In this document: piece by piece, positions 4,133-31,578 of the stretch
Layout of the letters: each line of letters begins with the position of its first letter
Position numbering within the stretch: position 1 is the stretch's first letter
NCBI GenBank assembly: GCA_964016885.1
Contig: OZ024757.1
Span: 42,780,001-42,844,000, forward strand
DNA: 64,000 nt
Reading direction: 5' to 3'
Source of the DNA: Eledone cirrhosa
Taxonomy: Eukaryota
Made by a program: the position numbers and the translations under genes
The notes under the pieces: model-generated
Told to the model about the DNA's origin: nothing
What the model saw: only the letters and a program-made list of their open reading frames with translations
Database searches by the model: none

Positions 4133-4604
4133 ATGACTTTTTGGCCATTTTAAGCCTTTATGTTGCCATATTTAGCCATTTTTGAGTCATTTTAGTAATT
4201 TATGATGCAGTTTCAGCCATTCTGTTGTAATATGGCAACATAAATGATTAAATGGCCCTAAAATGGCTAAAACAGCATCATATTTGACAAAAATGACTCG
4301 TAAATGAGTAAAACGGTATCGTAAATGACTAAAATAACTCTAGAAAGGCTACTACAGCATCATAAATGATTAAAATGACTCTAAAACGACTAAAACGTCT
4401 AAAATGACAAAAATGGCTTTAATATAGCTTAAACTGCATCTTAAATGACTAAAACTACTAAAATGACTCCGAAATGGCTAAAAAAAAACATCATAAATGG
4501 CTAAAATGACACTAATGTGGCTAAAACGGACTGTTAAATTGCTAAATTGTCTCAAAAATGGCTAAAACGTCTTCATAAATAAATAAAATGGCTAAAACGT
4601 GGGT
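4133..4604. repeat. AT-rich island 1, type C with a 130-bp deletion (472 bp)
   Basis: Runs from ATGACTTTTTGGCC to GGCTAAAACGTGGGT and lacks the segment between the two ATTTATGATGCAGTTT direct repeats. Confidence 0.97.
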
Positions 4605-6393
4605 GCCGGACCGTAGTGCGCATGCGCCAAGGCCGCCGGACCGTAATGCGCATGCGCCAAGGCCGCCGGACCGTAGTGCGCATGCGCCAAGACCGACTGA
4701 CTGTACTGCGCATGTGTCATCGTCGCAGTACCGCACTGCGCATGCGGTAAGGCCGCCGGACCGTACTGCGCATGCGCCAAGGCCGCCGGACCGTAGTGCG
4801 CAGGCGCCAAGGCCGCCGGACCGTAGTGCGCATGCACCAAGGCCGCCTGAGTGTACTGCGCATGCATCAAGGTCCCAGTACCGTACTGCGCATGCGCAAA
4901 GGCCGCCGGACAGTAGTGCGCATGCGCCAGAGCCGCCGAACCGTAGTGCGCATGCGCCAAGGCCGTCGGACCGTAGTGCGCATGGGCCAAAGCCGCCCGA
5001 CCGTACTGCGCATGCGCTAAGTCCGTAGTACCGTACTGCGCATGCTACAAGGCCGCAGTACCGTACTGCGCATGCGACAAGGCCGCAGTACCGTAGTGCG
5101 CATGCGCCAAGGCCACCGGACCGTAGTGCGCATGAGCCAAGGCCGCCGGACCGTACTGCGCATGCGCCAAGCCCGCCGGACCGTAGTGCGCATGCGCCAA
5201 GGCCGCCTGACTGTACTGCGCATGCGCCAAGGCCGCCTGACTGTACTGCGCATGCGTCAAGGTCCCAGTACCGAACTGCGCATGCGCTAAGGCCACCGGA
5301 CCGTACTGCGCATGCGCCAAGGCCGCCGGACCGTAGTGCGCATGCGCCAGAGCCGCCGAACCCTGGTGTGCATGCGCCAAGGCCGCCGGACCATACTGCA
5401 CATGCGCCAAAGCCACCTGACTGTACTGCGCATGTGCCAAGGCCGCCTGACTGTACTGCGCATGCGACAAGGCCGCCAGACCGTAGTGCGCATGCGCCAA
5501 GGCCACCTAACTGTACTGCGCATGCGTCAAGGTCGCAGTACCGAACTGCGCATGCGCCAAGGCCGCCGGACCGTACTGCGCATGCGCCAAGGCCGCCGGA
5601 CCGTAGTGCGCATGCGCCAAAGCCGCCGAACCGTAGTGCGCATGCGCCAAGGCCGCCGGACCATACTGCGCACGCATGCGCGCGGCCGCAGGACCGTAGT
5701 GCGCATGCGCCAAGGCCGCCTGGTTGTACTGCGCATGCGCCAAGGCCGCCGGACCGTAGTGCGCATGCGCCAAGGCCGCCTGACTGTACTGCGCATGCGT
5801 CAAGGCCGCAGTACCGAACTGCGTATGGGCTAAGGCCGCCGGACCGTACTGCGCATGCGCCAAGGCCGCCGGACCGTAGTGCGCATGCGCCAAGGCCGCC
5901 GGACCGTAGTGCGCCTGCGCCAAGGCCGCCTAACTGTACTGCGCATGCGTTAAATCGCAGTACCGAACTGCGCATGCGCCAAGGCCGCCGGACCGTACTG
6001 CGAATGCGCCAAGGCCGCCGGACCGTAGTGCGCATGCGCCAAAGCCGCCGAACCGTAGTGCGCATGCGCCAAGGCCGCCGGACCATACTGCGCACGCATG
6101 CGCCGCGGCCGCAGGACCGTAGTGCGCATGCGCCAAGGCCGCCTGGTTGTACTGCGCATGCGCCAAGGCCGCCGGACCGTAGTGCGCATGCGCCAAGGCC
6201 GCCTGACTGTACTGCGCATGCGTCAAGGCCGCAGTACCGAACTGCGTATGGGCTAAGGCCGCCGGACCGTACTGCGCATGCGCCAAGGCCGCCGGACCGT
6301 AGTGCGCATGCGCCAAGGCCGCCATACCATACTGCGCATGCGCCAAGGCCGCCAGACCGTAGTGCGCATGCGCCAAGGCCGCCTAACTGTACT

Positions 6394-6433: not shown

Positions 6434-7890
6434 TAAGGCCGCCGGACCGTACTGCGCATGCGCCAATGCCGCCGGACCGTAGTGCGCATGCGCCAAAGCC
6501 GCCGGACCGTAGTGCGCATGCGCCAAGGCCGCCTGGTTGTACTGCGCATGCGCCAAGGCCGCCGGATCGTAGTGCGCATGCGCCAAGGCCGCCTGACTGC
6601 ACTGCGCATGCGTCAAGGCCGCAGTACCGAACTGCGTATGGGCTAAGGCCGCCGGACCGTACTGCGCATGCGCCAAGGCCGCCGGACCGTAGTGCGCATG
6701 CGTCAAGGTCGCAGTACCGAACTGCGCATGCGCTAAGGCCGCCGGACCGTACTGCGCATGCGCCAAGGCCGCCGGACCGTAGTGCGCATGTGCCAAAGCC
6801 GCCGAACCGTAGTGCGCATGCGCCAAGGCCGCCTAACTGTACTGCGCATGCGTCAAGGTCGCAGTACCGAACTGCGCATGCGCCAAGGCCGCCGGACCGT
6901 ACTGCGAATGCGCCAAAGCCGCCGAACCGTAGTGCGCATGCGCCAAGGCCGCCGGACCATACTGCGCACGCATGCCGCGGTCGCAGGACCGTAGTGCGCA
7001 TGCGCCAAGGCCGCCTGGTTGTACTGCGCATGCGCCAAGGCCGCCGGACCGTAGTGCGCATGCGCCAAGGCCGCCTGACTGTACTGCGCATGCGTCAAGG
7101 CCGCAGTACCGAACTGCGTATGGGCTAAGGCCGCCGGACCGTACTGCGCATGCGCCAAGGCCGCCGGACCATACTGCGCATGCGCCAAGGCCGCCGGACC
7201 GTAGTGCGCATGCGCCAAGGCCGCCTAACTGTACTGCGCATGCGTCAAGGTCGCAGTACCGAACTGCGCATGCGCTAAGGCCGCCGGACCGTACTGCGCA
7301 TGCGCCAAGGCCGCGGGACCGTAGTGCGCATGCGCCAAAGCCGCCGGACCGTAGTGCGCATGCGCCAAGGCCGCCGGATCGTAGTGCGCATGCGCCAAGG
7401 CCGCCTGACTGTACTGCGCATGCGTCAAGGCCGCAGTACCGAACTGCGTATGGGCTAAGGCCGCCGGACCGTACTGCGCATGCGCCAAGACCGCCGGACC
7501 GTAGTGCGCATGCGTCAAGGTCGCAGTACCGAACTGCGCTTGCGCTAAGGCCGCCGGACCGTACTGCGCATGCGCCAAGGCCGCCGGACCGTAGTGCTCA
7601 TGCGCCAAAGCCGCCGAACCGTAGTGCGCATGCGCCAAGGCCGCCGGACCAGACTGCGCATGCGCCAAGGCCGCCGGACCGTAGTGCGCATGCGCCAAGG
7701 CCGCCGGACCGTAGTGCGCATGCGCCAAGGCCGCCTGACCGTAGTGCGCATGCGTCAAGGCCGCAGTACCGAACTGCGTATGGGCTAAGGCCGCCGGACC
7801 GTACTGCGCATGCGCCAAGGCCGCCGGACCGTACTGCGCATGCGCCAAGGCCGCCGGACCATACTGCGCATGCGCCAAGGCCGCCGTACA

Positions 7891-8266
7891 GCGCACTACG
7901 GTCTGGCATCATTGGCGCATGCGCACTACGGCCCGGCGGCCTTGGCGCATGCGCAGTACGGCCCGGCAACCTTGGCGTATGCGCACTACGGTCTGTCGGC
8001 CTTGGCGCATGCGCACTACTGTCCGGCGGCCTTGGCGCATGCGCAGTACGGTCCAGCGGCCTTGACGCATGCGCACTACGGTTCGGCGGCCTTGGCGCAT
8101 GCGTACAACGGTCCGGCGGCCTTGGCGCATGCGCACTACGGTCTGGCAGCATTGGCGCATGCGCACTACGGTCCGCCGTCCTTGGCGCATGCGCACTACG
8201 GTCCGCCGTCCTTGGCGCATGCGCACTACGGTCCGACGTCCTTGGCGCATGTGCAGTACGGTCCGG
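7891..8266 (-). repeat. Short inverted arm of the 30-bp satellite (376 bp)
   Basis: Junction CCGCCGTACA|GCGCACTACGG, followed by reverse-complement monomers. Confidence 0.97.
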
Positions 8267-8845
8267 ATGACTTTTTAGCCATTTTAAGCCTTTATGTTGC
8301 CATATTTAGCCATTTTTGAGTCATTTTAGTAATTTATGATGCAGTTTTTACCATTTTAGAGCCATTTATAGTCATTTTAGACGTTTCAGTCGTGTTAGAG
8401 TCATTCTAGTCAATTATGATACGGTTTTAGCATTTTAGTCGTTGATGATGACGTTTTAGTCATTTATGATGCAGATTCAGCCATTCTGTTGTAATATGGC
8501 AACATAAATGATTAAATGGCCCTAAAATGGCTAAAACAGCATCATATTTGACAAAAGTGACTCGTAAATGAGTAAAACGGTATCATAAATGACTAAAATA
8601 ACTCTAGAAAGGCTACTACAGCATCATAAATGATTAAAATGACTCTAAAACGACTAAAACGTCTAAAATGACAAAAATGGCTTTAATATAGCTTAAACTG
8701 CATCTTAAATGACTAAAACTACTAAAATGACTCCGAAATGGCTAAAATGACACTAAAGTGGCTAAAACGGACTGTTAAATTGCTAAATTGTCTCTAAAAT
8801 GGCTAAAACGTCTTCATAAATAAATAAAATGGCTAAAACGTGGGT
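8267..8845. repeat. AT-rich island 2, type A (579 bp)
   Basis: Diagnostic variants CTTTTTAGCC, GCAGATTCAG and ACAAAAGTGA. It lacks the A-run/CATCATAAATGGCT segment of types B and C. Confidence 0.97.
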
Positions 8846-11800
8846 GCCGGACCGTAGTGCGCATGCGCCAAGGCCGCCGGACCGTAATGCGCATGCGCCA
8901 AGGCCGCCGGATCGTAGTGCGCATGCGCCAAGGCCGACTGACTGTACTGCGCATGTGTCATCGTCGCAGTACCGAACTGCGCATGCGGTAAGGCCGCCGG
9001 ACCGTACTGCGCATGCGCCAAGGCCGCCGGACCGTAGTGCGCAGGCGCCAAGGCCGCCGGACCGTAGTGCGCATGCACCAAGGCCGCCTGAGTGTACTGC
9101 GCATGCATCAAGGTCCCAGTACCGTACTGCGCAAAGGCCGCCGGACAGTAGTGCGCATGCGCCAGAGCCGCCGAACCGTAGTGCGCATGCGCCAAGGCCG
9201 CCCGACCGTAGTGCGCATGGGCCAAAGCCGCCCGACCGTACTGCGCATGCGCTAAGTCCGTAGTACCGTACTGCGCATGCTACAAGGCCGCAGTACCGTA
9301 CTGCGCATGCGACAAGGCCGCAGTACCGTAGTGCGCATGCGCCAAGGCCACCGGACCGTAGTGCGCATGAGCCAAGGCCGCCGGACCGTACTGCGCATGC
9401 GCCAAGCCCGCCGGACCGTAGTGCGCATGCGCCAGAGCCGCCGAACCGTGGTGCACATGCGCCAAGCCCGCCGGACCGTAGTGCGCATGCGCCAAGCCCG
9501 CCGGACCGTAGTGCGCATGCGCCAAGGCCGCCTGACTGTACTGCGCATGCGTCAAGGTCCCAGTACCGAACTGCTCATGCGCTAAGGCCACCGGACCGTA
9601 CTGCGCATGCGCCAAGGCCGCCGGACCTTAGTGCGCATGCGCCAGAGCCGCCGAACCGTGGTGTGCATGCGCCAAGGCCGCCGGACCATACTGCGCATGC
9701 GCCAAAGCCGCCTGACTGTACTGCGCATGCGCCAAGGCCGCCTGACTGTACTGCGCATGCGACAAGGCCGCCGGACCGTTGTGCGCATGCGCCAAGGAAC
9801 CTAAATGTACTGCGCATGGTCGCAGTACCGAACTGCGCATGCGCCAAGGCCGCCGGACCGTACTGCGAATGCGCCAAGGCCGCCGGACCGTAGTGCGCAT
9901 GCGCCAAAGCCGCCGAACCGTGGTGCACATGCGCCAAGCCCGTCGGACCGTAGTGCGCATGCGCCAAGCCCGCCGGACCGTAGTGCGCATGCGCCAAGGC
10001 CGCCTGACTGTACTGCGCATGCGTCAAGGTCCCAGTACCGAACTGCGCATGCGCTAAGGCCACGGGACCGTACTGCGCATGCGCCAAGGCCGCCGGACCG
10101 TTGTGCGCATGCGCCAGAGCCGCCGAACCGTGGTGTGCATGCGCCAAGGCCACCGGACCATACTGCGCATGCGCCAAAGCCGCCTGACTGTACTGCGCAT
10201 GCGCCAAGGCCGCCTGACTGTACTGCGCATGCGACAAGGCCGCCGGACCGTAGTGCGCATGCGCCCAAGCCGCCGGACCATACTGCGCATGCGCCAAGGC
10301 CGCCGGACCGTAGTGCGCATGCGTCAAGGCCGCAGTACCGAACTGCGCATGCGCTAAGGCCGCAGTACCGAACTGCGCATGCGCTAAGGCCGCAGTACCG
10401 AACTGCGCATGCGCCAAGGCCGCCGGACCGTACTGCGCATGCGCCAAGGACGCCGGACCGTAGTGCGCAGGCGCCAAAGACGCCGGACCGTAGTGCGCAT
10501 GCGCCAAAGACGCCGAACAGTCGTGCCCATGCGCCAAGACCGCCGGACCGTACTGCGCATGCGCCAAGGCCGCTGAACCGTACTGCGCATGCCCCAAAGC
10601 CGCCGACCCGTAGTGCGCATGCACCAAGGCCACCGGACCGTACTGCGCATGCTCCAAGACCGTCGGACCGTAGTGCGCATGCCCCAAGGCCGTCGGACCG
10701 TAGTGCGCATGCGCCAATGCCGCCAGACCGTAGTGCGCATACGCCAAGGCCGCCGAACCGTACTGCGCATGCGCCAAGGCCGCCGAACCGTACTGCGCAT
10801 GCGCCAAGGCCGCCGAACCGTACTGCGCATGCGCCAAGGCCGCCGAACCGTACTGCGCATGCGCCAAAGCCGCTGGACCGTAGTGCGCATGCGCCAAGGC
10901 CACTGGACCGTACTGCGCATGTACCAAGGCCGCCGTCGTAGTGCGCATGCGCCAATGCCGCCGGACCTTTGTGCGCATGCGGTACGGTGGCCTTGGCGCA
11001 TGCGCACTAAGGTCTAACGGCCTTGGCGCATGCGCACTACGGTTCGGCGGCTTTGACGCACACGGACTACGTTCCGTCAGATTTGGCGCACGCACACTAC
11101 GGTCCGGCGGTCTTGGCGCATGCGCACTACGGTCCGGCGACCACGCCGCATGCGCACTACGTTCCGGTGGCCTTGGCACATGCGCAGTACCGTCCGGCGG
11201 CTTTTGCGCATGCGCACTACGGTCTGGCAGCCTTGGCGCATGCGCACTACGGTCCAGCGGCCTTGGCGCATGCGCACTACGTTCCGGTGGCCTTGGCGCA
11301 TGCGCAGTACGGTCCAGTGGCCTTGGCGCATGCGTAGTAAGGTCCGGCGCCCTTAGCGCATGCGCAGTACGGTCCGGCAGCCTTGGCGCATGCGCACTAA
11401 GGGCCAGCGGTCTTTGCGCATGCGCACAACGGTCCGGTGGCCTTGGCGCATGCGCACTACGGTCCGGCGGCCTTGGCGCATGCGCACTAAGGTCCGGCGG
11501 CTTTGGTGCATGCGCACTACGGTCTGGCATCATTGGCGCATGCGCACTACGGTCCGGCGGCCTTGGCGCATGCGCAGTACGGCTGGCAACCTTGGCGTAT
11601 GCGCACTACGGTCTGTCGGCCTTGGCGCATGCGCACTACTGTCCGGCGGCCTTGGCGTATGCGCAGTACGGTCCAGCGGCCTTGGCGCATGCGCACTACG
11701 GTTCGGCGGCCTTGGCGCATGCGCACTACGGTTCGGCGGCCTTGGCGCATGCGTACAACGGTCCGGCGGCCTTGGCGCATGCGCACTACGGTCTGGCAGC

Positions 11801-12140
11801 ATTGGCGCAGGCGCACTAAGGTCCGGCGGCCTTGGCGCATGCGCACTACGGTCCGACGTCCTTGGCGCATGCGCACTACGGTCCGACGTCCTTGGCGCAT
11901 GTGCAGTACGGTCCGGATGACTTTTTGGCCATTTTAAGCCTTTATGTTGCCATATTTAGCCATTTTTGAGTCATTTTAGTAATTTATGATGCAGTTTTTA
12001 CCATTTTAGAGCCATTTATAGTCATTTTAGACGTTTCAGTCGTGTTAGAGTCATTCTAGTCAATTATGATACGGTTTTAGCATTTTAGTCGTTGATGATG
12101 ACGTTTTAGTCATTTATGATGCAGTTTCAGCCATTCTGTT
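8490..12140. mobile_element. Representative macro-unit read as a putative non-autonomous foldback-like element (AT-forward, GC-forward ... GC-reverse, AT-reverse), tandemly amplified
   Basis: Bipartite inverted repeats built from tandem sub-repeats, with homologous AT/GC junctions on both sides. No transposase or target-site duplication is visible, so mobility is inferred only. Confidence 0.4.
10982..11916 (-). repeat. Long inverted arm (935 bp)
   Basis: Same junction and variant order as 3168-4132, one monomer shorter. Confidence 0.96.
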
Positions 12141-12517
12141 GTAATATGGCAACATAAATGATTAAATGGCCCTAAAATGGCTAAAACAGCATCATATTTG
12201 ACAAAAATGACTCGTAAATGAGTAAAACGGTATCGTAAATGACTAAAATAACTCTAGAAAGGCTACTACAACATCATAAATGATTAAAATGACTCTAAAA
12301 CGACTAAAACGTCTAAAATGACAAAAATGGCTTTAATATAGCTTAAACTGCATCTTAAATGACTAAAACTACTAAGATGACTCCGAAATGGCTAAAAAAA
12401 ACATCATAAATGGCTAAAATGACACTAAAGTGGCTAAAACGGACTGTTAAATTGCTAAATTGTCTCTAAAATGGCTAAAACGTCTTCATAAATAAATAAA
12501 ATGGCTAAAACGTGGGT
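11917..12517. repeat. AT-rich island 3, type B (601 bp)
   Basis: Diagnostic variants CTACAACATC and ACTAAGATGA, with an A8 run. Confidence 0.97.
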
Positions 12518-15500
12518 GCCGGACCGTAGTGCGCATGCGCCAAGGCCGCCGGACCGTAATGCGCATGCGCCAAGGCCGCCGGACCGTAGTGCGCATGCGC
12601 CAAGACCGACTGACTGTACTGCGCATGTGTCATCGTCGCAGTACCGCACTGCGCATGCGGTAAGGCCGCCGGACCGTACTGCGCATGCGCCAAGGCCGCC
12701 GGACCGTAGTGCGCAGGCGCCAAGGCCGCCAGACCGTAGTGCGCATGCACCAAGGCCGCCTGAGTGTACTGCGCATGCATCAAGGTCCCAGTACCGCACT
12801 GCGCATGCGCAAAGGCCGCCGGACAGTAGTGCGCATGCGCCAGAGCCGCCGAACCGTAGTGCGCATGCGCCAAGGCCGCCGGACCGTAGTGCGCATGGGC
12901 CAAAGCCGCCCGACCGTACTGCGCATGCGCTAAGTCCGTAGTACCGTACTGCGCATGCTACAAGGCCGCAGTACCGTACTGCGCATGCGACAAGGCCGCA
13001 GTACCGTAGTGCGCATGCGCCAAGGCCACCGGACCGTAGTGCGCATGAGCCAAGGCCGCCGGACCGTACTGCGCATGCGCCAAGCCCGCCGGACCGTAGT
13101 GCGCATGCGCCAGAGCCGCCGAACCGTGGTGCACATGCGCCAAGCCCGCCGGACCGTAGTGCGCATGCGCCAAGGCCGCCGGACCATACACCGCATGCGC
13201 CAAGGCCGCCGGACCATACTCCGCATGCGCCAAGGCCGCCGGACCGTTGTGCGCATGCGCCAAGGCCGCCTGACGACTGCGCATGCGTCAAGGTCGAAAT
13301 ACCGAACTGCGCATGCGCTAAGGCCGGCGGACCGTAGTGCGCATTCGCCAAGGCCGCCGGACCGTAGTGCGCATTCGCCAAGGCCGCCGGACCGTAGTGC
13401 GCATGCGCCAAGGCCGCCGGACCGTAGTGCGCATGCGCCAAGGCCGCCTAACTGTACTGCGCATGCGTCAAGGTCGCAGTACCGAACTGCGCATGCGCTA
13501 AGGCCGCCGGACCGTACTGCGCATGCGCCAAGGCCGCCGGACCGTAGTGCGCATGCGCCAAAGCCGCCGAACCGTAGTGCGCATGCGCCAAGGTCGCCGG
13601 ACCTGACTGCGCATGCGCCGCGGCCGCCGGACCGTACTGCGCATGCCCCAAGGCCGCCTGGTTGTACTGCGCATGCCCCAAGGCTGCCTGGTTGTACTGC
13701 TAATGCCCCAAGGCCGCCCGACCGTAGTGCGCATGCGCCAAGGCCGCCTGACCGTAGTGCGCATGCGCCAAGGCCGCCGGACCGTAGTGCGCATGCGTCA
13801 AGGTCGCAGTACCGAACTGCGCATGCGCTAAGGCCGCCGGACCGAACTGCGTATGGGCTAAGGCCGCCGGACCGTACTGCGCATGCGCCAAAGCCGCCGG
13901 ACCGTAGTGCGCATGCGTCAAGGTCGCAGTACCGAACTGCGCATGCGCTAAGGCCGCCGGACCGTACTGCGCATGCGCCAAGGCCGCCGGACCGTACTGC
14001 GCATACCCCAAGGCCGCCTGGTTGTACTGCGCATGCCCCAAGGCCGCCCGACCGTAGTGCGCATGCGCCAAAGCCGCCGAACCGTAGTGCGCATGCGCCA
14101 AGGCCGCCTAACTGTACTGCGCATGCGTCAAGGTCGCAGTACCGAACTGCGCATGCGCCAAGGCCGCCGGACCGTACTGCGAATGCGCCAAGGCCGCCGG
14201 ACCGTAGTGCGCATGCGCCAAAGCCGCCGAACCGTAGTGCGCATGCGCCAAGGCCGCCGGACCATACTGCGCACGCATGCGCCGCGGCCGCAGGACCGTA
14301 GTGCGCATGCGCCAAGGCCGCCTGGTTGTACTGCGCATGCGCCAAGGCCGCCGGACCGTAGTGCGCATGCGCCAAGGCCGCCTGACTGTACTGCGCATGC
14401 GTCAAGGCCGCAGTACCGAACTGCGTATGGGCTAAGGCCGCCGGACCGTACTGCGCATGCGCCAAGGCCGCCGGACCGTAGTGCGCATGCGCCAAGGCCG
14501 CCGGACCATACTGCGCATGCGCCAAGGCCGCCGGACCGTAGTGCGCATGCGCCAAGGCCGCCTAACTGTACTGCGCATGCGTCAAGGTCGCAGTACCGTA
14601 CTGCGCATGCGCCAAGGCCGCCGAACCGTACTGCGCATGCGCCAAGGCCGCCGAACCGTACTGCGCATGCGCCAAGGCCGCCGAACCGTACTGCGCATGC
14701 GCCAAAGCCGCCGAACCGTAGTGCGCATGCGCCAAAGCCGCTGGACCGTAGTGCGCATGCGCCAAGGCCACTGGACCGTACTGCGCATGTACCAAGGCCG
14801 CCGTCGTAGTGCGCATGCGCCAAGGCCGCCGGAACTTTGTGCGCATGCGCCAAGGCCGCCGGACCGTAGTGCGCATGCGCCAAGGCCGCCGGACCATAGT
14901 GCGCATGCGCCAAGGCCGCCGGAGCATACTGCGCATGCGCCAAGGCCACCGGACCGTAGTGCGCATGAGCCAAGGCCGCCGGACCGTAGTGCGCATGCGC
15001 CAAGGCCACCGGACCGTAGTGCGCATGAGCCAAGGCCGCCGGACCGTAGTGCGCATGCGCCAGAGCCGCCGAACCGTGGTGCACATGCGCCAAGCCCGTC
15101 GGACCGTAGTGCGCATGCGCCAAGCCCGCCGGACCGTAGTGCGCATGCGCCAAGGCCGCCTGACTGTACTGCGCATGCGTCAAGGTCCCAGTACCGAACT
15201 GCGCATGCGCTAAGGCCACCGGACCGTACTGCGCATGCGCCAAGGCCGCCGGACCGTTGTGCGCATGCGCCAGAGCCGCCGAACCGTGGTGTGCATGCGC
15301 CAAGGCCGCCGGACCATACTGCGCATGCGCCAAAGCCGCCTGACTGTACTGCGCATGCGCCAAGGCCGCCTGACTGTACTGCGCATGCGACAAGGCCGCC
15401 GGACCGTAGTGCGCATGCGCCCAAGCCGCCGGACCATACTGCGCATGCGCCAAGGCCGCCGGACCGTAGTGCGCATGCGTCAAGGCCGCAGTACCGAACT

Positions 15501-17102: not shown

Positions 17103-17704
17103 ATGACTTTTTGGCCATTTTAAGCCTTTATGTTGCCATATTTAGCCATTTTTGAGTCATTTTAGTAATTTATGATGCAGTTTTTACCATTTTAGAGCCA
17201 TTTATAGTCATTTTAGACGTTTCAGTCGTGTTAGAGTCATTCTAGTCAATTATGATACGGTTTTAGCATTTTAGTCGTTGATGATGACGTTTTAGTCATT
17301 TATGATGCAGTTTCAGCCATTCTGTTGTAATATGGCAACATAAATGATTAAATGGCCCTAAAATGGCTAAAACAGCATCATATTTGACAAAAATGACTCG
17401 TAAATGAGTAAAACGGTATCGTAAATGACTAAAATAACTCTAGAAAGGCTACTACAGCATCATAAATGATTAAAATGACTCTAAAACGACTAAAACGTCT
17501 AAAATGACAAAAATGGCTTTAATATAGCTTAAACTGCATCTTAAATGACTAAAACTACTAAAATGACTCCGAAATGGCTAAAAAAAAACATCATAAATGG
17601 CTAAAATGACACTAAAGTGGCTAAAACGGACTGTTAAATTGCTAAATTGTCTCTAAAATGGCTAAAACGTCTTCATAAATAAATAAAATGGCTAAAACGT
17701 GGGT
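17103..17704. repeat. AT-rich island 4, type C (602 bp)
   Basis: Full-length island with an A9 run, CTACAGCATC and ACTAAAATGA. Confidence 0.97.
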
Positions 17705-20700
17705 GCCGGACCGTAGTGCGCATGCGCCAAGGCCGCCGGACCGTAATGCGCATGCGCCAAGGCCGCCGGACCGTAGTGCGCATGCGCCAAGACCGACTGA
17801 CTGTACTGCGCATGTGTCATCGTCGCAGTACCGCACTGCGCATGCGGTAAGGCCGCCGGACCGTACTGCGCATGCGCCAAGGCCGCCGGACCGTAGTGCG
17901 CAGGCGCCAAGGCCGCCGGACCGTAGTGCGCATGCACCAAGGCCGCCTGAGTGTACTGCGCATGCATCAAGGTCCCAGTACCGTACTGCGCATGCGCAAA
18001 GGCCGCCGGACAGTAGTGCGCATGCACCAGAGCCGCCGAACCGTAGTGCGCATGCGCCAAGGCCGTCGGACCGTAGTGCGCATGGGCCAAAGCCGCCCGA
18101 CCGTACTGCGCATGCGCTAAGTCCGTAGTACCGTACTGCGCATGCTACAAGGCCGCAGTACCGTACTGCGCATGCGACAAGGCCGCAGTACCGTAGTGCG
18201 CATGCGCCAAGGCCACCGGACCGTAGTGCGCATGAGCCAAGGCCGCCGGACCGTACTGCGCATGCGCCAAGCCCGCCGGACCGTAGTGCGCATGCGCCAA
18301 GGCCGCCTGACTGTACTGCGCATGCGCCAAGGCCGCCTGACTGTACTGCGCATGCGTCAAGGTCCCAGTACCGAACTGCGCATGCGCTAAGGCCACCGGA
18401 CCGTACTGCGCATGCGCCAAGGCCGCCGGACCGTAGTGCGCATGCGCCAGAGCCGCCGAACCCTGGTGTGCATGCGCCAAGGCCGCCGGACCATACTGCA
18501 CATGCGCCAAAGCCACCTGACTGTACTGCGCATGTGCCAAGGCCGCCTGACTGTACTGCGCATGCGACAAGGCCGCCAGACCGTAGTGCGCATGCGCCAA
18601 GGCCACCTAACTGTACTGCGCATGCGTCAAGGTCGCAGTACCGAACTGCGCATGCGCCAAGGCCGCCGGACCGTACTGCGCATGCGCCAAGGCCGCCGGA
18701 CCGTAGTGCGCATGCGCCAAAGCCGCCGAACCGTAGTGCGCATGCGCCAAGGCCGCCGGACCATACTGCGCACGCATGCGCGCGGCCGCAGGACCGTAGT
18801 GCGCATGCGCCAAGGCCGCCTGGTTGTACTGCGCATGCGCCAAGGCCGCCGGACCGTAGTGCGCATGCGCCAAGGCCGCCTGACTGTATTGCGCATGCGT
18901 CAAGGCCGCAGTACCGAACTGCGTATGGGCTAAGGCCGCCGGACCGTACTGCGCATGCGCCAAGGCCGCCGGACCGTAGTGCGCATGCGCCAAGGCCGCC
19001 GGACCGTAGTGCGCCTGCGCCAAGGCCGCCTAACTGTACTGCGCATGCGTTAAATCGCAGTACCGAACTGCGCATGCGCTAAGGCCGCCGGACCGTACTG
19101 CGCATGCGCCAAAGCCGCCGGACCGTAGTGCGCATGCGCCAAGTCCGCCTGGTTGTACTGCGCATGCGCCAAGGCCGCCGGACCGTAGTGCGCATGCGCC
19201 AAGGCCGCCTGACTGTACTGCGCATGCGTCAAGGCCGCAGTACCGAACTGCGTATGGGCTAAGGCCGCCGGACCGTACTGCGCATGCGCCAAGGCCGCCG
19301 GACCGTAGTGCGCATGCGCCAAGGCCGCCGGACCATACTGCGCATGCGCCAAGGCCGCCGGACCGTAGTGCGCATGCGCCAAGGCCGCCTAACTGTACTG
19401 CGCATGCGTCAAGGTCGCAGTACCGAACTGCGCATGCGCTAAGGCCGCCGGACCGTACTGCGCATGCGCCAAGGCCGCCGTACCGTAGTGCGCATGCGCC
19501 AAAGCCGCCGAACCGTAGTGCGCATGCGCCAAGGCCGCCGGACCAGACTGCGCATGCGCCATGGCCGCCGGACCGTAGTGCGCATGCGCCAAGGCCGCCT
19601 GACCGTAGTGCGCATGCGCCAAGGCCGCCTGACTGTACTGCGCATGCGCCAAGGCCGCCGGACCGTAGTGCGCATGCGCCAAGGCCGCCGGACCGTAGTG
19701 TGCATGCGCCAAGACCGCCTAACTGTACTGCGCATGCGCCAAGGCCACCTAACTGTACTGCGCATGCGTCAAGGTCGCAGTACCGAACTGCGCATGCGCC
19801 AAGGCCGCCGGACCGTACTGCGAATGCGCCAAGGCCGCCGAACCGTAGTGCGCATGCGCCAAGGCCGCCTGACTGTACTGCGCATGCGTCAAGGCCGCAG
19901 TACCGAACTGCGCATGCGCTAAGGCCGCCGGACCGAACAGCGTATGGGCTAAGGCCGCCGGACCGTACTGCGCATGCGCCAAGGCCGCCGGACCGTAGTG
20001 CGCATGCGCCAAAGCCGCCGAACCGTAGTGCGCATGCGCCAAGGCCGCCTAACTGTACTGCGCATGCGTCAAGGTCGCAGTACCGAACTGCGCATGCGCC
20101 AAGGCCGCCGGACCGTACTGCGAATGCGCCAAGGCCGCCGGACCGTAGTGCGCATGCGCCAAAGCCGCCGAACCGTAGTGCGCATGCGCCAAGGCCGCCG
20201 GACCATACTGCGCACGCATGCGCCGCGGCCGCAGGGCCGTAGTGCGCATGCGCCAAGGCCGCCGGACCGTACTGCGCATGCGCCAAGGCCGCCGGACCGT
20301 AGTGCGCATGCGCCAAGGCCGCCGGACCATACTGCGCATGCGCCAAGGCCGCCAGACCGTAGTGCGCATGCGCCAAGGCCGCCTAACTGTACTGCGCATG
20401 CGCACTACGGTCCGGCGGCCTTGGCGCATGCGCTAAGGCCGCCGGACCGTACTGCACATGCGCCAATGCCGCCGGACCGTAGTGCGCATGCGCCAAAGCC
20501 GCCGGACCGTAGTGCGCATGCGCCAAGGCCGCCTGGTTGTACTGCGCATGCGCCAAGGCCGCCGGATCGTAGTGCGCATGCGCCAAGGCCGCCTGACTGC
20601 ACTGCGCATGCGTCAAGGCCGCAGTACCGAACTGCGTATGGGCTAAGGCCGCCGGACCGTACTGCGCATGCGCCAAGGCCGCCGGACCGTAGTGCGCATG

Positions 20701-22266: not shown

Positions 22267-22845
22267 ATGACTTTTTAGCCATTTTAAGCCTTTATGTTGC
22301 CATATTTAGCCATTTTTGAGTCATTTTAGTAATTTATGATGCAGTTTTTACCATTTTAGAGCCATTTATAGTCATTTTAGACGTTTCAGTCGTGTTAGAG
22401 TCATTCTAGTCAATTATGATACGGTTTTAGCATTTTAGTCGTTGATGATGACGTTTTAGTCATTTATGATGCAGATTCAGCCATTCTGTTGTAATATGGC
22501 AACATAAATGATTAAATGGCCCTAAAATGGCTTAAACAGCATCATATTTGACAAAAGTGACTCGTAAATGAGTAAAACGGTATCATAAATGACTAAAATA
22601 ACTCTAGAAAGGCTACTACAGCATCATAAATGATTAAAATGACTCTAAAACGACTAAAACGTCTAAAATGACAAAAATGGCTTTAATATAGCTTAAACTG
22701 CATCTTAAATGACTAAAACTACTAAAATGACTCCGAAATGGCTAAAATGACACTAAAGTGGCTAAAACGGACTGTTAAATTGCTAAATTGTCTCTAAAAT
22801 GGCTAAAACGTCTTCATAAATAAATAAAATGGCTAAAACGTGGGT
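22267..22845. repeat. AT-rich island 5, type A (579 bp)
   Basis: Carries the type A diagnostic variants. Confidence 0.97.
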
Positions 22846-24922
22846 GCCGGACCGTAGTGCGCATGCGCCAAGGCCGCCGGACCGTAATGCGCATGCGCCA
22901 AGGCCGCCGGATCGTAGTGCGCATGCGCCAAGGCCGACTGACTGTACTGCGCATGTGTCATCGTCGCAGTACCGAACTGCGCATGCGGTAAGGCCGCCGG
23001 ACCGTACTGCGCATGCGCCAAGGCCGCCGGACCGTAGTGCGCAGGCGCCAAGGCCGCCGGACCGTAGTGCGCATGCACCAAGGCCGCCTGAGTGTACTGC
23101 GCATGCATCAAGGTCCCAGTACCGTACTGCGCAAAGGCCGCCGGACAGTAGTGCGCATGCGCCAGAGCCGCCGAACCGTAGTGCGCATGCGCCAAGGCCG
23201 CCCGACCGTAGTGCGCATGGGCCAAAGCCGCCCGACCGTACTGCGCATGCGCTAAGTCCGTAGTACCGTACTGCGCATGCTACAAGGCCGCAGTACCGTA
23301 CTGCGCATGCGACAAGGCCGCAGTACCGTAGTGCGCATGCGCCAAGGCCACCGGACCGTAGTGCGCATGAGCCAAGGCCGCCGGACCGTACTGCGCATGC
23401 GCCAAGCCCGCCGGACCGTAGTGCGCATGCGCCAGAGCCGCCGAACCGTGGTGCACATGCGCCAAGCCCGCCGGACCGTAGTGCGCATGCGCCAAGCCCG
23501 CCGGACCGTAGTGCGCATGCGCCAAGGCCGCCTGACTGTACTGCGCATGCGTCAAGGTCCCAGTACCGAACTGCTCATGCGCTAAGGCCACCGGACCGTA
23601 CTGCGCATGCGCCAAGGCCGCCGGACCTTAGTGCGCATGCGCCAGAGCCGCCGAACCGTGGTGTGCATGCGCCAAGGCCGCCGGACCATACTGCGCATGC
23701 GCCAAAGCCGCCTGACTGTACTACGCATGCGCCAAGGCCGCCTGACTGTACTGCGCATGCGACAAGGCCGCCGGACCGTTGTGCGCATGCGCCAAGGCCA
23801 CCTAAATGTACTGCGCATGGTCGCAGTACCGAACTGCGCATGCGCCAAGGCCGCCGGACCGTACTGCGAATGCGCCAAGGCCGCCGGACCGTAGTGCGCA
23901 TGCGCCAAAGCCGCCGGACCGTAGTGCGCATGCGCCAAGGCCGCCTGACTGTACTGCGCATGCGTCAAGGTCCCAGTACCGAACTGCGCATGCGCTAAGG
24001 CCACGGGACCGTACTGCGCATGCGCCAAGGCCGCCGGACCGTTGTGCGCATGCGCCAGAGCCGCCGAACCGTGGTGTGCATGCGCCAAGGCCACCGGACC
24101 ATACTGCGCATGCGCCAAAGCCGCCTGACTGTACTGCGCATGCGCCAAGGCCGCCTGACTGTACTGCGCATGCGACAAGGCCGCCGGACCGTAGTGCGCA
24201 TGCGCCCAAGCCGCCGGACCATACTGCGCATGCGCCAAGGCCGCCGGACCGTAGTGCGCATGCGTCAAGGCCGCAGTACCGAACTGCGCATGCGCTAAGG
24301 CCGCAGTACCGAACTGCGCATGCGCTAAGGCCGCAGTACCGAACTGCGCATGCGCCAAGGCCGCCGGACCGTACTGCGCATGCGCCAAGGACGCCGGACC
24401 GTAGTGCGCAGGCGCCAAAGACGCCGGACCGTAGTGCGCATGCGCCAAAGACGCCGAACAGTCGTGCCCATGCGCCAAGACCGCCGGACCGTACTGCGCA
24501 TGCGCCAAGGCCGCTGAACCGTACTGCGCATGCCCCAAAGCCGCCGACCCGTAGTGCGCATGCACCAAGGCCACCGGACCGTACTGCGCATGCTCTAAGA
24601 CCGTCGGACCGTAGTGCGCATGCCCCAAGGCCGTCGGACCGTAGTGCGCATGCGCCAATGCCGCCAGACCGTAGTGCGCATACGCCAAGGCCGCCGAACC
24701 GTACTGCGCATGCGCCAAGGCCGCCGAACCGTACTGCGCATGCGCCAAGGCCGCCGAACCGTACTGCGCATGCGCCAAGGCCGCCGAACCGTACTGCGCA
24801 TGCGCCAAAGCCGCTGGACCGTAGTGCGCATGCGCCAAGGCCACTGGACCGTACTGCGCATGTACCAAGGCCGCCGTCGTAGTGCGCATGCGCCAATGCC
24901 GCCGGACCTTTGTGCGCATGCG

Positions 24923-25827: not shown

Positions 25828-26428
25828 ATGACTTTTTGGCCATTTTAAGCCTTTATGTTGCCATATTTAGCCATTTTTGAGTCATTTTAGTAATTTATGA
25901 TGCAGTTTTTACCATTTTAGAGCCATTTATAGTCATTTTAGACGTTTCAGTCGTGTTAGAGTCATTCTAGTCAATTATGATACGGTTTTAGCATTTTAGT
26001 CGTTGATGATGACGTTTTAGTCATTTATGATGCAGTTTCAGCCATTCTGTTGTAATATGGCAACATAAATGATTAAATGGCCCTAAAATGGCTAAAACAG
26101 CATCATATTTGACAAAAATGACTCGTAAATGAGTAAAACGGTATCGTAAATGACTAAAATAACTCTAGAAAGGCTACTACAACATCATAAATGATTAAAA
26201 TGACTCTAAAACGACTAAAACGTCTAAAATGACAAAAATGGCTTTAATATAGCTTAAACTGCATCTTAAATGACTAAAACTACTAAGATGACTCCGAAAT
26301 GGCTAAAAAAAACATCATAAATGGCTAAAATGACACTAAAGTGGCTAAAACGGACTGTTAAATTGCTAAATTGTCTCTAAAATGGCTAAAACGTCTTCAT
26401 AAATAAATAAAATGGCTAAAACGTGGGT
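25828..26428. repeat. AT-rich island 6, type B (601 bp)
   Basis: Carries the type B diagnostic variants. Confidence 0.97.
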
Positions 26429-28805
26429 GCCGGACCGTAGTGCGCATGCGCCAAGGCCGCCGGACCGTAATGCGCATGCGCCAAGGCCGCCGGACCGTAG
26501 TGCGCATGCGCCAAGACCGACTGACTGTACTGCGCATGTGTCATCGTCGCAGTACCGCACTGCGCATGCGGTAAGGCCGCCGGACCGTACTGCGCATGCG
26601 CCAAGGCCGCCGGACCGTAGTGCGCAGGCGCCAAGGCCGCCGGACCGTAGTGCGCATGCACCAAGGCCGCCTGAGTGTACTGCGCATGCATCAAGGTCCC
26701 AGTACCGCACTGCGCATGCGCAAAGGCCGCCGGACAGTAGTGCGCATGCGCCAGAGCCGCCGAACCGTAGTGCGCATGCGCCAAGGCCGCCGGACCGTAG
26801 TGCGCATGGGCCAAAGCCGCCCGACCGTACTGCGCATGCGCTAAGTCCGTAGTACCGTACTGCGCATGCTACAAGGCCGCAGTACCGTACTGCGCATGCG
26901 ACAAGGCCGCAGTACCGTAGTGCGCATGCGCCAAGGCCACCGGACCGTAGTGCGCATGAGCCAAGGCCGCCGGACCGTACTGCGCATGCGCCAAGCCCGC
27001 CGGACCGTAGTGCGCATGCGCCAGAGCCGCCGAACCGTGGTGCACATGCGCCAAGCCCGCCGGACCGTAGTGCGCATGCGCCAAGGCCGCCGGACCATAC
27101 ACCGCATGCGCCAAGGCCGCCGGACCATACTCCGCATGCGCCAAGGCCGCCGGACCGTTGTGCGCATGCGCCAAGGCCGCCTGACGACTGCGCATGCGTC
27201 AAGGTCGCAATACCGAACTGCGCATGCGCTAAGGCCGGCGGACCGTAGTGCGCATTCGCCAAGGCCGCCGGACCGTAGTGCGCATTCGCCAAGGCCGCCG
27301 GACCGTAGTGCGCATGCGCCAAGGCCGCCGGACCGTAGTGCGCATGCGCCAAGGCCGCCTAACTGTACTGCGCATGCGTCAAGGTCGCAGTACCGAACTG
27401 CGCATGCGCTAAGGCCGCCGGACCGTACTGCGCATGCGCCAAGGCCGCCGGACCGTAGTGCGCATGCGCCAAGGCCGCCGAACCGTAGTGCGCATGCGCC
27501 AAGGTCGCCGGACCTGACTGCGCATGCGCCGCGGCCGCCGGACCGTACTGCGCATGCCCCAAGGCCGCCTGGTTGTACTGCGCATGCCCCAAGGCTGCCT
27601 GGTTGTACTGCTAATGCCCCAAGGCCGCCCGACCGTAGTGCGAATGCGCCAAGGCCGCCTGACCGTAGTGCGCATGCGCCAAGGCCGCCGGAGCGTAGTG
27701 CGCATGCGTCAAGGTCGCAGTACCGAACTGCGCATGCGCTAAGGCCGCCGGACCGAACTGCGTATGGGCTAAGGCCGCCGGACCGTACTGCGCATGCGCC
27801 AAAGCCGCCGGACCGTAGTGCGCATGCGTCAAGGTCGCAGTACCGAACTGCGCATGCGCTAAGGCCGCCGGACCGTACTGCGCATGCGCCAAGGCCGCCG
27901 GACCGTACTGCGCATACCCCAAGGCCGCCTGGTTGTACTGCGCATGCCCCAAGGCCGCCCGACCGTAGTGCGCATGCGCCAAAGCCGCCGAACCGTAGTG
28001 CTCATGCGCCAAGGCCGCCTAACTGTACTGCGCATGCGTCAAGGTCGCAGTACCGAACTGCGCATGCGCCAAGGCCGCCGGACCGTACTGCGAATGCGCC
28101 AAGGCCGCCGGACCGTAGTGCGCATGCGCCAAAGCCGCCGAACCGTAGTGCGCATGCGCCAAGGCCGCCGGACCATACTGCGCACGCATGCGCCGCGGCC
28201 GCAGGACCGTAGTGCGCATGCGCCAAGGCCGCCTGGTTGTACTGCGCATGCGCCAAGGCCGCCGGACCGTAGTGCGCATGCGCCAAGGCCGCCTGACTGT
28301 ACTGCGCATGCGTCAAGGCCGCAGTACCGAACTGCGTATGGGCTAAGGCCGCCGGACCGTACTGCGCATGCGCCAAGGCCGCCGGACCGTAGTGCGCATG
28401 CGCCAAGGCCGCCGGACCATACTGCGCATGCGCCAAGGCCGCCGGACCGTAGTGCGCATGCGCCAAGGCCGCCTAACTGTACTGCGCATGCGTCAAGGTC
28501 GCAGTACCGTACTGCGCATGCGCCAAGGCCGCCGAACCGTACTGCGCATGCGCCAAGGCCGCCGAACCGTACTGCGCATGCGCCAAGGCCGCCGAACCGT
28601 ACTGCGCATGCGCCAAAGCCGCCGAACCGTAGTGCGCATGCGCCAAAGCCGCTGGACCGTAGTGCGCATGCGCCAAGGCCACTGGACCGTACTGCGCGTG
28701 CTCTAAGACCGTCGGACCGCAGTGCGCATGCCCCAAGGCCGTCGGACCGTAGTGCGCATGCGCCAAGGCCGCCAGACCGTAGTGCGCATGCGCCAAGGCC
28801 GCCGA

Positions 28806-30976: not shown

Positions 30977-31578
30977 ATGACTTTTTGGCCATTTTAAGCC
31001 TTTATGTTGCCATATTTAGCCATTTTTGAGTCATTTTAGTAATTTATGATGCAGTTTTTACCATTTTAGAGCCATTTATAGTCATTTTAGACGTTTCAGT
31101 CGTGTTAGAGTAATTCTAGTCAATTATGATACGGTTTTAGCATTTTAGTCGTTGATGATGACGTTTTAGTCATTTATGATGCAGTTTCAGCCATTCTGTT
31201 GTAATATGGCAACATAAATGATTAAATGGCCCTAAAATGGCTAAAACAGCATCATATTTGACAAAAATGACTCGTAAATGAGTAAAACGGTATCGTAAAT
31301 GACTAAAATAACTCTAGAAAGGCTACTACAGCATCATAAATGATTAAAATGACTCTAAAACGACTAAAACGTCTAAAATGACAAAAATGGCTTTAATATA
31401 GCTTAAACTGCATCTTAAATGACTAAAACTACTAAAATGACTCCGAAATGGCTAAAAAAAAAAATCATAAATGGCTAAAATGACACTAATGTGGCTAAAA
31501 CGGACTGTTAAATTGCTAAATTGTCTCAAAAATGGCTAAAACGTCTTCATAAATAAATAAAATGGCTAAAACGTGGGT
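30977..31578. repeat. AT-rich island 7, type C (602 bp)
   Basis: Type C, sharing ACACTAATGTGG with island 1. Confidence 0.97.

What the first reader, a model, noticed from the sequence alone, without database searches (positions are those of the whole stretch)
8493..8845. The AT island is a hidden 41-bp satellite with four A-tracts per unit (10.25-bp phasing)
Seen: the A-rich half parses as 11+9+13+8 = 41-bp units with consensus AAAATGACTCT AAAATGGCT AAAACAGCATCAT AAATGACT. Examples are aaaataactct-agaaaggct-actacagcatcat-aaatgatt, aaaatgacact-aaagtggct-aaaacggactgtt-aaattgct and aaattgtctct-aaaatggct-aaaacgtcttcat-aaataaat. Established: A-tracts phased at about 10-10.5 bp give intrinsic curvature and rotational nucleosome positioning (kinetoplast bent DNA, nematode PATCs). 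Inference: the islands are bent-DNA or chromatin-organising modules embedded regularly in GC-rich satellite.
Basis: partly seen in the sequence, partly recalled or inferred. Interest (0 to 1): 0.7.

Follow-up and report, generated by a model that had tools for sequence, protein, structure and literature searches.

The report
Phased AT palindrome in GC satellite
Each AT-rich island is an imperfect palindrome built from a worn 41-bp repeat with A-runs about every 10 bp, sitting where a GC-rich 30-bp satellite reverses direction; it likely arose by one old fold-back duplication that was later copied as a block, and it is predicted to bend DNA moderately, probably as a by-product of its repeat length.

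Summary
The 41-bp repeat is real (lag-41 autocorrelation z=9.8; all three quoted units are exact), but only six full units cover 246 of 353 bp, with 2-5 A-tracts each. Two short units (38 and 29 bp) shift the AA/TT period to 10.04 bp; at 10.25 the power is at chance level. All 12 islands (0-8 mismatches apart) sit at the reverse-to-forward switch of a 30-bp GC satellite. Together they form 3.6-7.1-kb units within 12-14-kb higher-order repeats. This matches the two-satellite 'macro-dyad' architecture described in Tribolium, with unrelated sequence. Models predict moderate left-handed curvature and a WW/SS antiphase pattern favourable to nucleosomes. A neutral slippage simulation gives the same 10-bp power (55% of 400 runs), and block amplification explains the recurrence, so a selected chromatin role is not shown. 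Verdict: real, partly mis-described, a new variant of a known architecture. Organism and chromosomal position unchecked.

The parts
8267..8846 (.). Whole AT island (580 bp, 31% GC): imperfect palindrome of a degenerate 41-bp minisatellite
   Evidence: folds as one long hairpin as single-stranded DNA, -128 kcal/mol, z=-16 against 100 shuffles
8267..8492 (-). Left (T-rich) arm: inverted homolog of the right arm, same subunits, AA/TT period 10.03 bp
   Evidence: 157 of 185 aligned bases identical to the right arm; 0 of 1000 subunit-order shuffles and 4 of 1000 41-bp-block shuffles score as high; period
8493..8846 (+).
8478..8545 (.). Turning point of the palindrome (asymmetric; the right arm carries the unpaired extra bases)
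   Evidence: 8480-8545 occurs exactly in 11 of 12 islands
8513..8635 (+). Three consecutive full 41-bp units (8513, 8554, 8595)
8636..8673 (+). Shortened 38-bp unit; this irregular block is shared with the left arm
   Evidence: 36 of 40 ungapped match between the arms, the best arm-to-arm diagonal
8674..8714 (+). Full 41-bp unit
   Evidence: 34 of 41
8715..8743 (+). Shortened 29-bp unit; 7 of 12 islands carry 22-23 more bases here
8744..8825 (+). Two consecutive full 41-bp units (8744, 8785)
   Evidence: 32 and 34 of 41
7890..8266 (-). Reverse-oriented sub-array of the 30-bp GC satellite (short type; about 1 kb in the other type)
8847..10981 (+). Forward sub-array of the 30-bp GC satellite (10-bp palindromic core plus 20-bp spacer)
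7866..7914 (.). Forward-to-reverse GC junction, type A (5 copies in the window)
10973..10995 (.). Forward-to-reverse GC junction, type B (7 copies plus 1 inverted copy)
4133..4605 (.). Island copy lacking 130 bp of the left arm
11917..12518 (.). Island copy (602 bp)
17103..17705 (.). Island copy (603 bp)
22267..22846 (.). Island copy (580 bp)
25828..26429 (.). Island copy (602 bp)
30977..31579 (.). Island copy (603 bp)
36536..37115 (.). Island copy (580 bp, identical to the focal one)
43635..44237 (.). Island copy (603 bp)
50246..50825 (.). Island copy (580 bp, identical to the focal one)
57345..57947 (.). Island copy (603 bp)
62597..63176 (.). Island copy (580 bp, identical to the focal one)

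Best explanation
The island is an imperfect palindrome of a degenerate AT-rich 41-bp minisatellite at the reverse-to-forward switch of a 30-bp GC satellite, likely made by one old fold-back duplication across an AT/GC satellite boundary and likely multiplied recently as part of a 3.6-7.1-kb block, and it is predicted to be moderately curved, probably as a by-product of its roughly 10-bp subunit. Step 1 (inferred from autocorrelation lags 9, 20/21, 41, 82): a 9-10-bp A-run unit grew into a 20/21-bp dimer and then the 41-bp unit; slippage between like subunits later cut some units short. Step 2 (shown): the two arms are inverted homologs that share an irregular block; both run outward into the GC satellite. 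Step 3 (inferred): the inversion came from a replication template switch or ectopic recombination; 15-20% divergence of the arms makes it old. Step 4 (shown as structure, mechanism inferred): the block was copied with under 1.5% divergence into 12-14-kb higher-order repeats, by unequal exchange or circle re-integration. Step 5 (predicted): short tracts at 10.04-10.14 bp give a left-handed superhelical bias and would set the rotational phase of any nucleosome placed there. No sequence evidence requires selection for this.
For: Arms homologous and colinear: 157 of 185 (focal) and 166 of 207 (long allele) aligned bases identical; 0 of 1000 subunit-order shuffles reach the score, and 4 and 13 of 1000 block shuffles. 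12 of 12 islands lie at a reverse-to-forward switch, all in one orientation. Copies differ by 0-8 mismatches, with 12 variable columns besides two indels. A 13,710-bp direct duplicate is 99.99% identical, and offsets of 12.4-14.3 kb recur. The array still makes fold-backs: a perfect 726-bp palindrome at 28806-30283 and 7 copies of a single spacer flipped between palindromic cores. Neutral simulation from the island's own subunits reaches the observed 10-bp power in 92%, 55%, 32% and 16% of 400 runs at skip rates 0, 0.1, 0.2 and 0.3; about 3 of 35 subunit junctions are irregular. One copy lacks 130 bp of an arm and lengths run 473-603 bp. No coding or RNA role: longest stop-free frame 40 codons; 6 Rfam matches in 7500-13000, all far below gathering score.
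Against: W-to-S changes are rarer inside tracts than at other W positions (4 of 126 against 10 of 77, Fisher p=0.01), which fits selection on the tracts, though the test is post hoc, the classes come from the same copies, and conversion among four like subunits could do the same. The two arms are in phase across the turning point (1 degree in the focal allele, -5 to -18 in three others). My idea that fold-back microhomology forces this was not borne out (1 of 7 possible stems within 1.5 bp), so it stays unexplained; as one event it ranks 1st of 11 registers in the focal allele and 4th of 11 in the long one. The GC arms are 83-84% alike but not shown to be colinear (6 of 100 shuffles reach the score). 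The simulated period centres on 10.22-10.24; the observed 10.04 sits near the lower 5% bound (10.02) at skip rate 0.1.
Confidence: 0.6

Rival explanations
1. The island is kept by selection as a chromatin module: a bent or nucleosome-phasing element, a PATC-like barrier, or a centromere-protein landing site at the apex of each macro-dyad.
For: 10.04-bp phase stays within 66-138 degrees across all 580 bp, including the inversion. AA/TT and SS in antiphase, 165-181 degrees in four alleles. 147-bp WW-SS amplitude 0.19-0.31 against a mean of 0.08 (max 0.15) in the GC satellite. Curvature above shuffles in six of six models. W-to-S depletion in tracts. PATCs act as barriers in C. elegans (bioRxiv 10.64898/2026.08.08.743475), and conserved inversion sites are proposed as functional in Tribolium (PMC13081366).
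Against: Tandem origin alone gives this coherence. All 12 copies descend from one block, so they are one observation. Length varies 473-603 bp and spacing 3.6-7.1 kb. Tracts are short: 1 A5 and no A6 in 32 runs. [quoted passage not shown]
Confidence: 0.2
2. The block is a decayed non-autonomous foldback transposon (Tetris or Rehavkus type) whose long inverted arms carry an AT 41-bp domain and a GC 30-bp domain, later amplified in tandem or nested in itself.
For: Two-domain inverted arms. Foldback elements seed satellites from tandem repeats in their inverted termini (PMC4079207; PMC12581902). Both forward-to-reverse junction types carry the same rare 14-bp word, on the forward side in type A and the reverse side in type B, as paired termini would.
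Against: No unique middle or flanking domain, no host flank, no 8-10-bp target-site duplication visible at either junction. The same word also occurs twice as an ordinary spacer variant (19470, 59682). The GC arms are not shown to be colinear.
Confidence: 0.15
3. The island is the scar of an end-to-end chromosome or sister fusion (breakage-fusion-bridge) in an AT-rich terminal repeat flanked by GC-rich subtelomeric satellite.
For: Geometry fits: T-rich strand runs into the centre, A-rich strand runs out, arms unequal (226 and 354 bp), inverted GC satellite on both sides.
Against: No G-rich strand: GC skew is 0.000 in the two 400-bp windows over the focal island. Subunits vary 7-13 bp in a 41-bp order, unlike telomerase repeats (own knowledge). 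Template switching at cores already explains inversions in this array.
Confidence: 0.05

Closest known systems
Tribolium 'macro-dyad' two-satellite arrays: TfSat01/TfSat03 in T. freemani (PMC12581902; passages, sections 5 and 6, word search of supplements) and TmSat1/TmSat2 in T. madens (PMC13081366; passages, word search of supplement)
   Same: Major-satellite arrays made of two inverted, unequal sub-arrays; a few conserved inversion types; arrays separated by a cassette of a second, degenerate satellite that is itself a dyad with a conserved centre; conserved transition zones.
   Different: Unrelated sequence: 0 hits for five words in the consensus tables. Monomers 30 and 41 bp, not 166 bp or ~110-bp-derived. 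Major satellite 68% GC. Cassette 0.5-0.6 kb, not about 4 kb, and it carries a 10-bp A-tract phase. Centromeric position unknown here.
C. elegans PATCs (bioRxiv 10.64898/2026.08.08.743475; parts 1-4 of 9 of the text and passages)
   Same: AT-rich, minisatellite-derived, about 10-bp periodic A/T clusters over hundreds of bases, predicted curved.
   Different: PATCs come from a 35-bp Helitron minisatellite, gain the 10-bp period by mutation, and lie in introns of germline genes. Here the period is built into the repeat unit and the setting is pure satellite.
Phased A-tract (kinetoplast-type) bent DNA (definitions from PMC7229863 and PMC4066768, passages; A5 models in PMC2760788, search listing only)
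   Same: Tracts of 4 or more A:T pairs without a TA step, on one strand, about one per turn (30 tracts over 35 subunits).
   Different: Runs are A3-A4, while bending is maximal at A6. Spacing is 8-13 bp with mean 10.06, not 10.5, so bends drift out of plane.
Foldback transposons Tetris (PMC4079207, passages) and Rehavkus (PMC12581902, passages)
   Same: Long inverted arms that hold tandem-repeat domains and can seed satellites.
   Different: No unique flanking or middle domain, no target-site duplication, tandem not dispersed as far as the window shows.
Chicken CNM 41-bp repeat (PMC9974502, passages)
   Same: 41-bp monomer; occurs in higher-order repeats.
   Different: CNM higher-order units hold 26-98 monomers; here at most 3 full units run in a row. 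CNM has an internal dyad; here each arm has A-runs on one strand only. The length match is coincidence; no sequence comparison was possible.
10-bp-periodic satellites such as Drosophila Prodsat (PMC5844345, passages) and curved insect satellites (PMC8122249, passages)
   Same: 10-bp AA/WW periodicity and predicted curvature are common in satellites.
   Different: Those are long homogeneous arrays; this is a short degenerate cassette inside another satellite.

Membership tests
Tribolium-type macro-dyad two-satellite architecture | Two different satellites in alternating arrays | tested here: met
   30-bp GC arrays alternate with 12 AT cassettes
Tribolium-type macro-dyad two-satellite architecture | Major arrays made mostly of two inverted, unequal sub-arrays | tested here: met
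   10 of 11 complete inter-island arrays have two sub-arrays, 1 of 11 has four (single-spacer flips not counted)
Tribolium-type macro-dyad two-satellite architecture | Few, highly conserved inversion types in the major satellite | tested here: met
   Type A 5 copies, type B 7 copies plus 1 inverted
Tribolium-type macro-dyad two-satellite architecture | Minor-satellite cassette is itself a dyad with a degenerate but conserved centre | tested here: met
   centre exact in 11 of 12 copies
Tribolium-type macro-dyad two-satellite architecture | Conserved transition zones between the two satellites | tested here: met
   17-bp words across each border found at 12 of 12 islands
Tribolium-type macro-dyad two-satellite architecture | Multi-megabase (peri)centromeric blocks on most chromosomes | not testable with these tools
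   only a 64-kb window; no eukaryotic genome collection on hand
Tribolium satellite families (sequence membership) | Sequence similarity to the T. freemani or T. madens satDNA consensus sets | tested here: not met
   0 hits for five exact 13-15-bp words in the supplements holding the consensus tables; cells over 400 letters are cut, and one data archive and one PDF could not be read
Phased A-tract (kinetoplast-type) bent DNA | Tracts of 4 or more A:T pairs without TA, about one per helical turn | tested here: met
   30 tracts over 35 subunits in the right arm, 15 in the left arm
Phased A-tract (kinetoplast-type) bent DNA | Runs of 5-6 A (length recalled; An bending maximal at n=6) | tested here: not met
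   1 A5, 0 A6 among 32 runs
Phased A-tract (kinetoplast-type) bent DNA | Spacing equal to the helical repeat (about 10.5 bp) | tested here: not met
   peak 10.03-10.14 bp; a side peak at 10.5 has about one third of the power
Phased A-tract (kinetoplast-type) bent DNA | Anomalous polyacrylamide mobility | not testable with these tools
   models only
PATC | About 10-bp periodic A/T clusters over hundreds of bases | tested here: met
PATC | High score under the Fire et al. PATC algorithm | not tested
   algorithm not on hand
PATC | Lies in introns of germline genes; derived from a 35-bp Helitron minisatellite | tested here: not met
   window is satellite throughout; unit is 41 bp
PATC | Nucleosome-depleted, digestion-resistant footprint | not testable with these tools
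   no chromatin data
Foldback transposon (Tetris/Rehavkus type) | Long inverted arms with tandem-repeat domains | tested here: met
Foldback transposon (Tetris/Rehavkus type) | Non-repeat flanking and middle domains | tested here: not met
   centre and both junction types consist of repeat-derived sequence
Foldback transposon (Tetris/Rehavkus type) | 8-10-bp target-site duplication | tested here: inconclusive
   none seen by eye at the junctions; no host flank in the window
Foldback transposon (Tetris/Rehavkus type) | Dispersed copies, autonomous partner | not testable with these tools
   no eukaryotic genome collection
Chicken CNM repeat | 41-bp monomer | tested here: met
Chicken CNM repeat | Long tandem arrays (26-98 monomers per higher-order unit) of a monomer with internal dyad | tested here: not met
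   at most 3 consecutive units; A-runs on one strand per arm

The most novel reading that the evidence does not exclude
A macro-dyad two-satellite array of a kind so far reported only in Tribolium, built from unrelated sequences, in which the minor cassette is a phase-locked bendable palindrome kept by selection at every head-to-head inversion, acting as a nucleosome-phasing or barrier element or as the centromere-protein site inside a GC-rich satellite.
Probability: 0.15. Interest if true: 0.7.

Novelty: new variant of a known kind. Interest (0 to 1): 0.36.

Why it matters
Phased A-runs in a satellite are ordinary. What is worth recording is the architecture. A 2026 paper states that macro-dyads of satellite arrays have been documented only in Tribolium (PMC13081366). 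This window shows the same layout with a 68% GC 30-bp major repeat and a 31% GC phased cassette. If the source is not a Tribolium, the layout is convergent. The GC contrast and the unique island k-mers also make it an easy test bed: CENP-A, MNase or Fiber-seq reads can be assigned to apex versus arms, which tests directly whether conserved inversion sites are functional or only co-amplified.

Tried and rejected
Bacterial and archaeal genomes: 0 matches for a 30-letter GC-unit pattern and 0 for a 30-letter AT-unit pattern. Rfam on 7500-13000: 6 matches, all far below gathering score, the hairpin kind any palindrome gives. Coding role: longest stop-free frame in the island 40 codons. Papers: six sequence words gave 5 unrelated papers; satellite plus the core palindrome 1 unrelated paper; descriptor searches gave 2, 4 and 0 papers without this repeat in the listings; 'macro-dyad' gave the two Tribolium works plus two papers that only cite them. 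So I found no description of this satellite in those searches; subscription journals and Repbase/Dfam were not searchable. Rejected: a uniform 10.25-bp phase; a Fourier peak at 41 bp; my idea that fold-back microhomology forces the arms into phase; colinearity of the GC arms; TA-step periodicity of the Widom-601 kind (TA power only 0.7-1.2); CNM identity; methylation-driven decay of the GC satellite (CpG o/e 1.21, 80 transitions at 10 CpG positions against 125 at 12 other G/C positions in 150 distinct monomers). No protein, structure or complex tools were used because nothing here codes.

Full report
SETTING. The whole window is satellite. A 30-bp, 68% GC repeat runs from end to end; 1748 of 1870 core-to-core distances are exactly 30 bp. 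Its unit is a 10-bp palindromic core plus a 20-bp spacer. Twelve AT-rich islands of 473-603 bp interrupt it. The finding covers the right part of the second island, whose full extent is 8267-8846.

CHECK OF THE OBSERVATION. The three quoted units are exact at 8595, 8744 and 8785. Autocorrelation of 8493-8845 peaks at lag 41 (z=9.8, 1000 dinucleotide shuffles; 99th percentile of the best shuffle z 3.96), then 20, 9, 50 and 82. So the 41-bp unit is real, and the lags suggest a hierarchy of 9-10, 20/21 and 41 bp. It is a worn repeat. A 38-bp and a 29-bp unit break the register. The AA/TT spectrum therefore peaks at 10.03-10.05 bp (power 7.1; best of 300 shuffles 3.14). At 10.25 bp the power is 0.45, reached by 24% of shuffles, and there is no peak at 41. 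Longer alleles peak at 10.11-10.14. The six units hold 4, 3, 2, 2, 3 and 5 tracts of 4 bp or more. A-runs are short: 14 A3, 17 A4, 1 A5, no A6.

The T-rich half (8267-8492) is the same repeat on the other strand and a true homolog of the A-rich half. 157 of 185 aligned bases are identical in the focal island and 166 of 207 in a long allele. No subunit-order shuffle of 1000 reaches the score; 4 and 13 of 1000 41-bp-block shuffles do. The arms share the irregular block at 8636-8673 (36 of 40, the best arm-to-arm diagonal). As a single strand the island folds into one long hairpin (z=-16, 100 shuffles). Every island (12 of 12) lies where the GC satellite turns from reverse to forward, with the short arm on the left. 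Between islands the GC array turns back at one of two conserved junctions: type A in 5 copies, type B in 7 copies plus one inverted. Ten of 11 complete arrays have two sub-arrays and one has four. The islands differ by 0-8 mismatches, plus a 22-23-bp indel and one 130-bp loss. They recur every 3.6-7.1 kb (CV 0.22) within higher-order repeats of 12-14 kb, one of them a 13,710-bp duplicate at 99.99%. The two AT arms are 15-20% diverged and the flanking GC arms 16-17%, so the inversion is inferred to be old and the amplification recent. Inversion is ongoing: a perfect 726-bp palindrome sits at 28806-30283, and a single spacer is flipped between two cores in 7 places.

PHYSICAL PREDICTION. I ran six simple trajectory models. 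The wedge angles are recalled from Bolshoy et al. and the code is my own, so the results are qualitative. The right arm bends 3.8-16.9 degrees per turn against 2.6-6.6 for shuffles; 0 of 100 shuffles reach it in five models, 1 of 100 when tracts must be 5 bp or longer. A synthetic A6 control at 10.5 bp gives 13-29. The torsion sign is negative in all six models, as expected when tract spacing is shorter than the helix: an extended left-handed superhelix, not a planar kinetoplast-type bend. AA/TT and SS steps are in antiphase (179 degrees), and the 147-bp WW-SS amplitude is about three times that of the GC satellite. A 10-bp WW period is said to favour nucleosome wrapping (PMC5844345, passages), and short phased tracts are enriched in positioning sequences (PMC7229863, passages). 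C. elegans PATCs, in contrast, are reported as nucleosome-depleted barriers (bioRxiv 10.64898/2026.08.08.743475, parts 1-4 of 9 and passages).

IS THE PHASE SELECTED? The observed subunit order is more coherent than random order (1 of 500 shuffles), but a 41-bp tandem origin pairs long with short subunits by itself. Arrays simulated from the island's own subunits reach the observed power in 92%, 55%, 32% and 16% of 400 runs at skip rates 0, 0.1, 0.2 and 0.3; the real rate is about 3 of 35. Against this reading: the simulated period centres on 10.22-10.24 and the observed 10.04 lies near the lower 5% bound at skip rate 0.1; W-to-S changes are rarer in tracts than at other W sites (4 of 126 against 10 of 77, p=0.01, post hoc and non-independent); and the arms are in phase across the turning point (1 degree; -5 to -18 in three other alleles). 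That last point is one event, ranking 1st of 11 registers in the focal allele and 4th of 11 in the long one, and my microhomology explanation for it failed (1 of 7 stems). These are hints, not proof.

COMPARISON WITH WHAT IS KNOWN. The closest architecture is the macro-dyad organisation of Tribolium (peri)centromeric DNA. In T. freemani, major-satellite arrays of two inverted unequal sub-arrays with six conserved inversion types alternate with cassettes of a second, degenerate satellite that form their own dyad around a conserved centre (PMC12581902, passages and sections 5-6). T. madens is alike, and that paper says such arrays are documented only in Tribolium (PMC13081366, passages). Five architectural features were tested here and met. 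Sequence membership was not: five words gave 0 hits in the supplements that hold the consensus tables (long cells are cut, and one archive and one PDF were unreadable). So it works like a macro-dyad array and is not one of those families. Foldback transposons (PMC4079207, passages) share the two-domain inverted arms but need unique domains and target-site duplications that are not seen. Chicken CNM shares only the length (PMC9974502, passages). Curvature and dyads are common in insect satellites, with no established role (PMC8122249, passages). A-tract definitions are from PMC4066768, PMC7229863 and PMC3372288 (passages). PMC13427858 and PMC13277930 only cite the Tribolium work. No paper describing this satellite turned up, and neither unit occurs in the bacterial and archaeal genomes. 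The lack of CpG decay (o/e 1.21) fits a eukaryote that does not methylate this repeat; that is inference, and the organism is unknown.

VERDICT. Observation partly confirmed; interpretation partly supported. Best reading (0.6): a fold-back relic of a phased AT minisatellite, co-amplified with a GC satellite into a macro-dyad array, with curvature as a likely by-product. Rivals: selected chromatin module (0.2), decayed foldback transposon (0.15), fusion scar (0.05). Novelty: new variant of a known kind. Interest 0.36; 0.7 if the cassette proves to be a selected apex element.

Noticed in passing
window 1-64000, core of the 30-bp unit: Each GC monomer holds a perfect 10-bp palindrome (1167 exact copies). 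With its 5' neighbour it reads like the NRF1/Ewg binding motif (recalled, not tested). The first eight core positions vary less than most spacer positions among 150 distinct monomers (cores were picked with at most 2 mismatches).
   Followed up: partly
window 6419, 20419, 33393, 34688, 47103, 48398, 60811: A single 20-bp spacer is inverted exactly between two palindromic cores inside forward arrays; looks like a template switch at the cores.
   Followed up: partly
window 28806-30283: Perfect young palindrome: 726-bp arms, 100% identical, 26-bp spacer, carrying an inverted copy of junction B.
   Followed up: partly
window 32110-59546: 13,710-bp tandem duplicate at 99.99% identity, with 1295-bp internal duplicates at 100%. 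Very recent expansion or an assembly artefact; not decidable here.
   Followed up: no
window 7876 (type A) and 10982 (type B) and their copies: Both forward-to-reverse junction types carry the same rare 14-bp word, on opposite sides, like paired termini; it also occurs twice as an ordinary spacer variant at 19470 and 59682. Unexplained.
   Followed up: partly
window 8291-8306 and 8493-8508: A 16-bp exact inverted match links the outer end of the left arm to the inner start of the right arm, hinting at an older, longer period in the AT array.
   Followed up: no
window 4133-4605: One island lacks 130 bp of its left arm between direct repeats, 13 turns at 10.0 bp; the phase across the centre is kept.
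   Followed up: partly
window 12600-16000: No CpG depletion (o/e 1.21) and no excess of CpG transitions in the GC satellite.
   Followed up: partly
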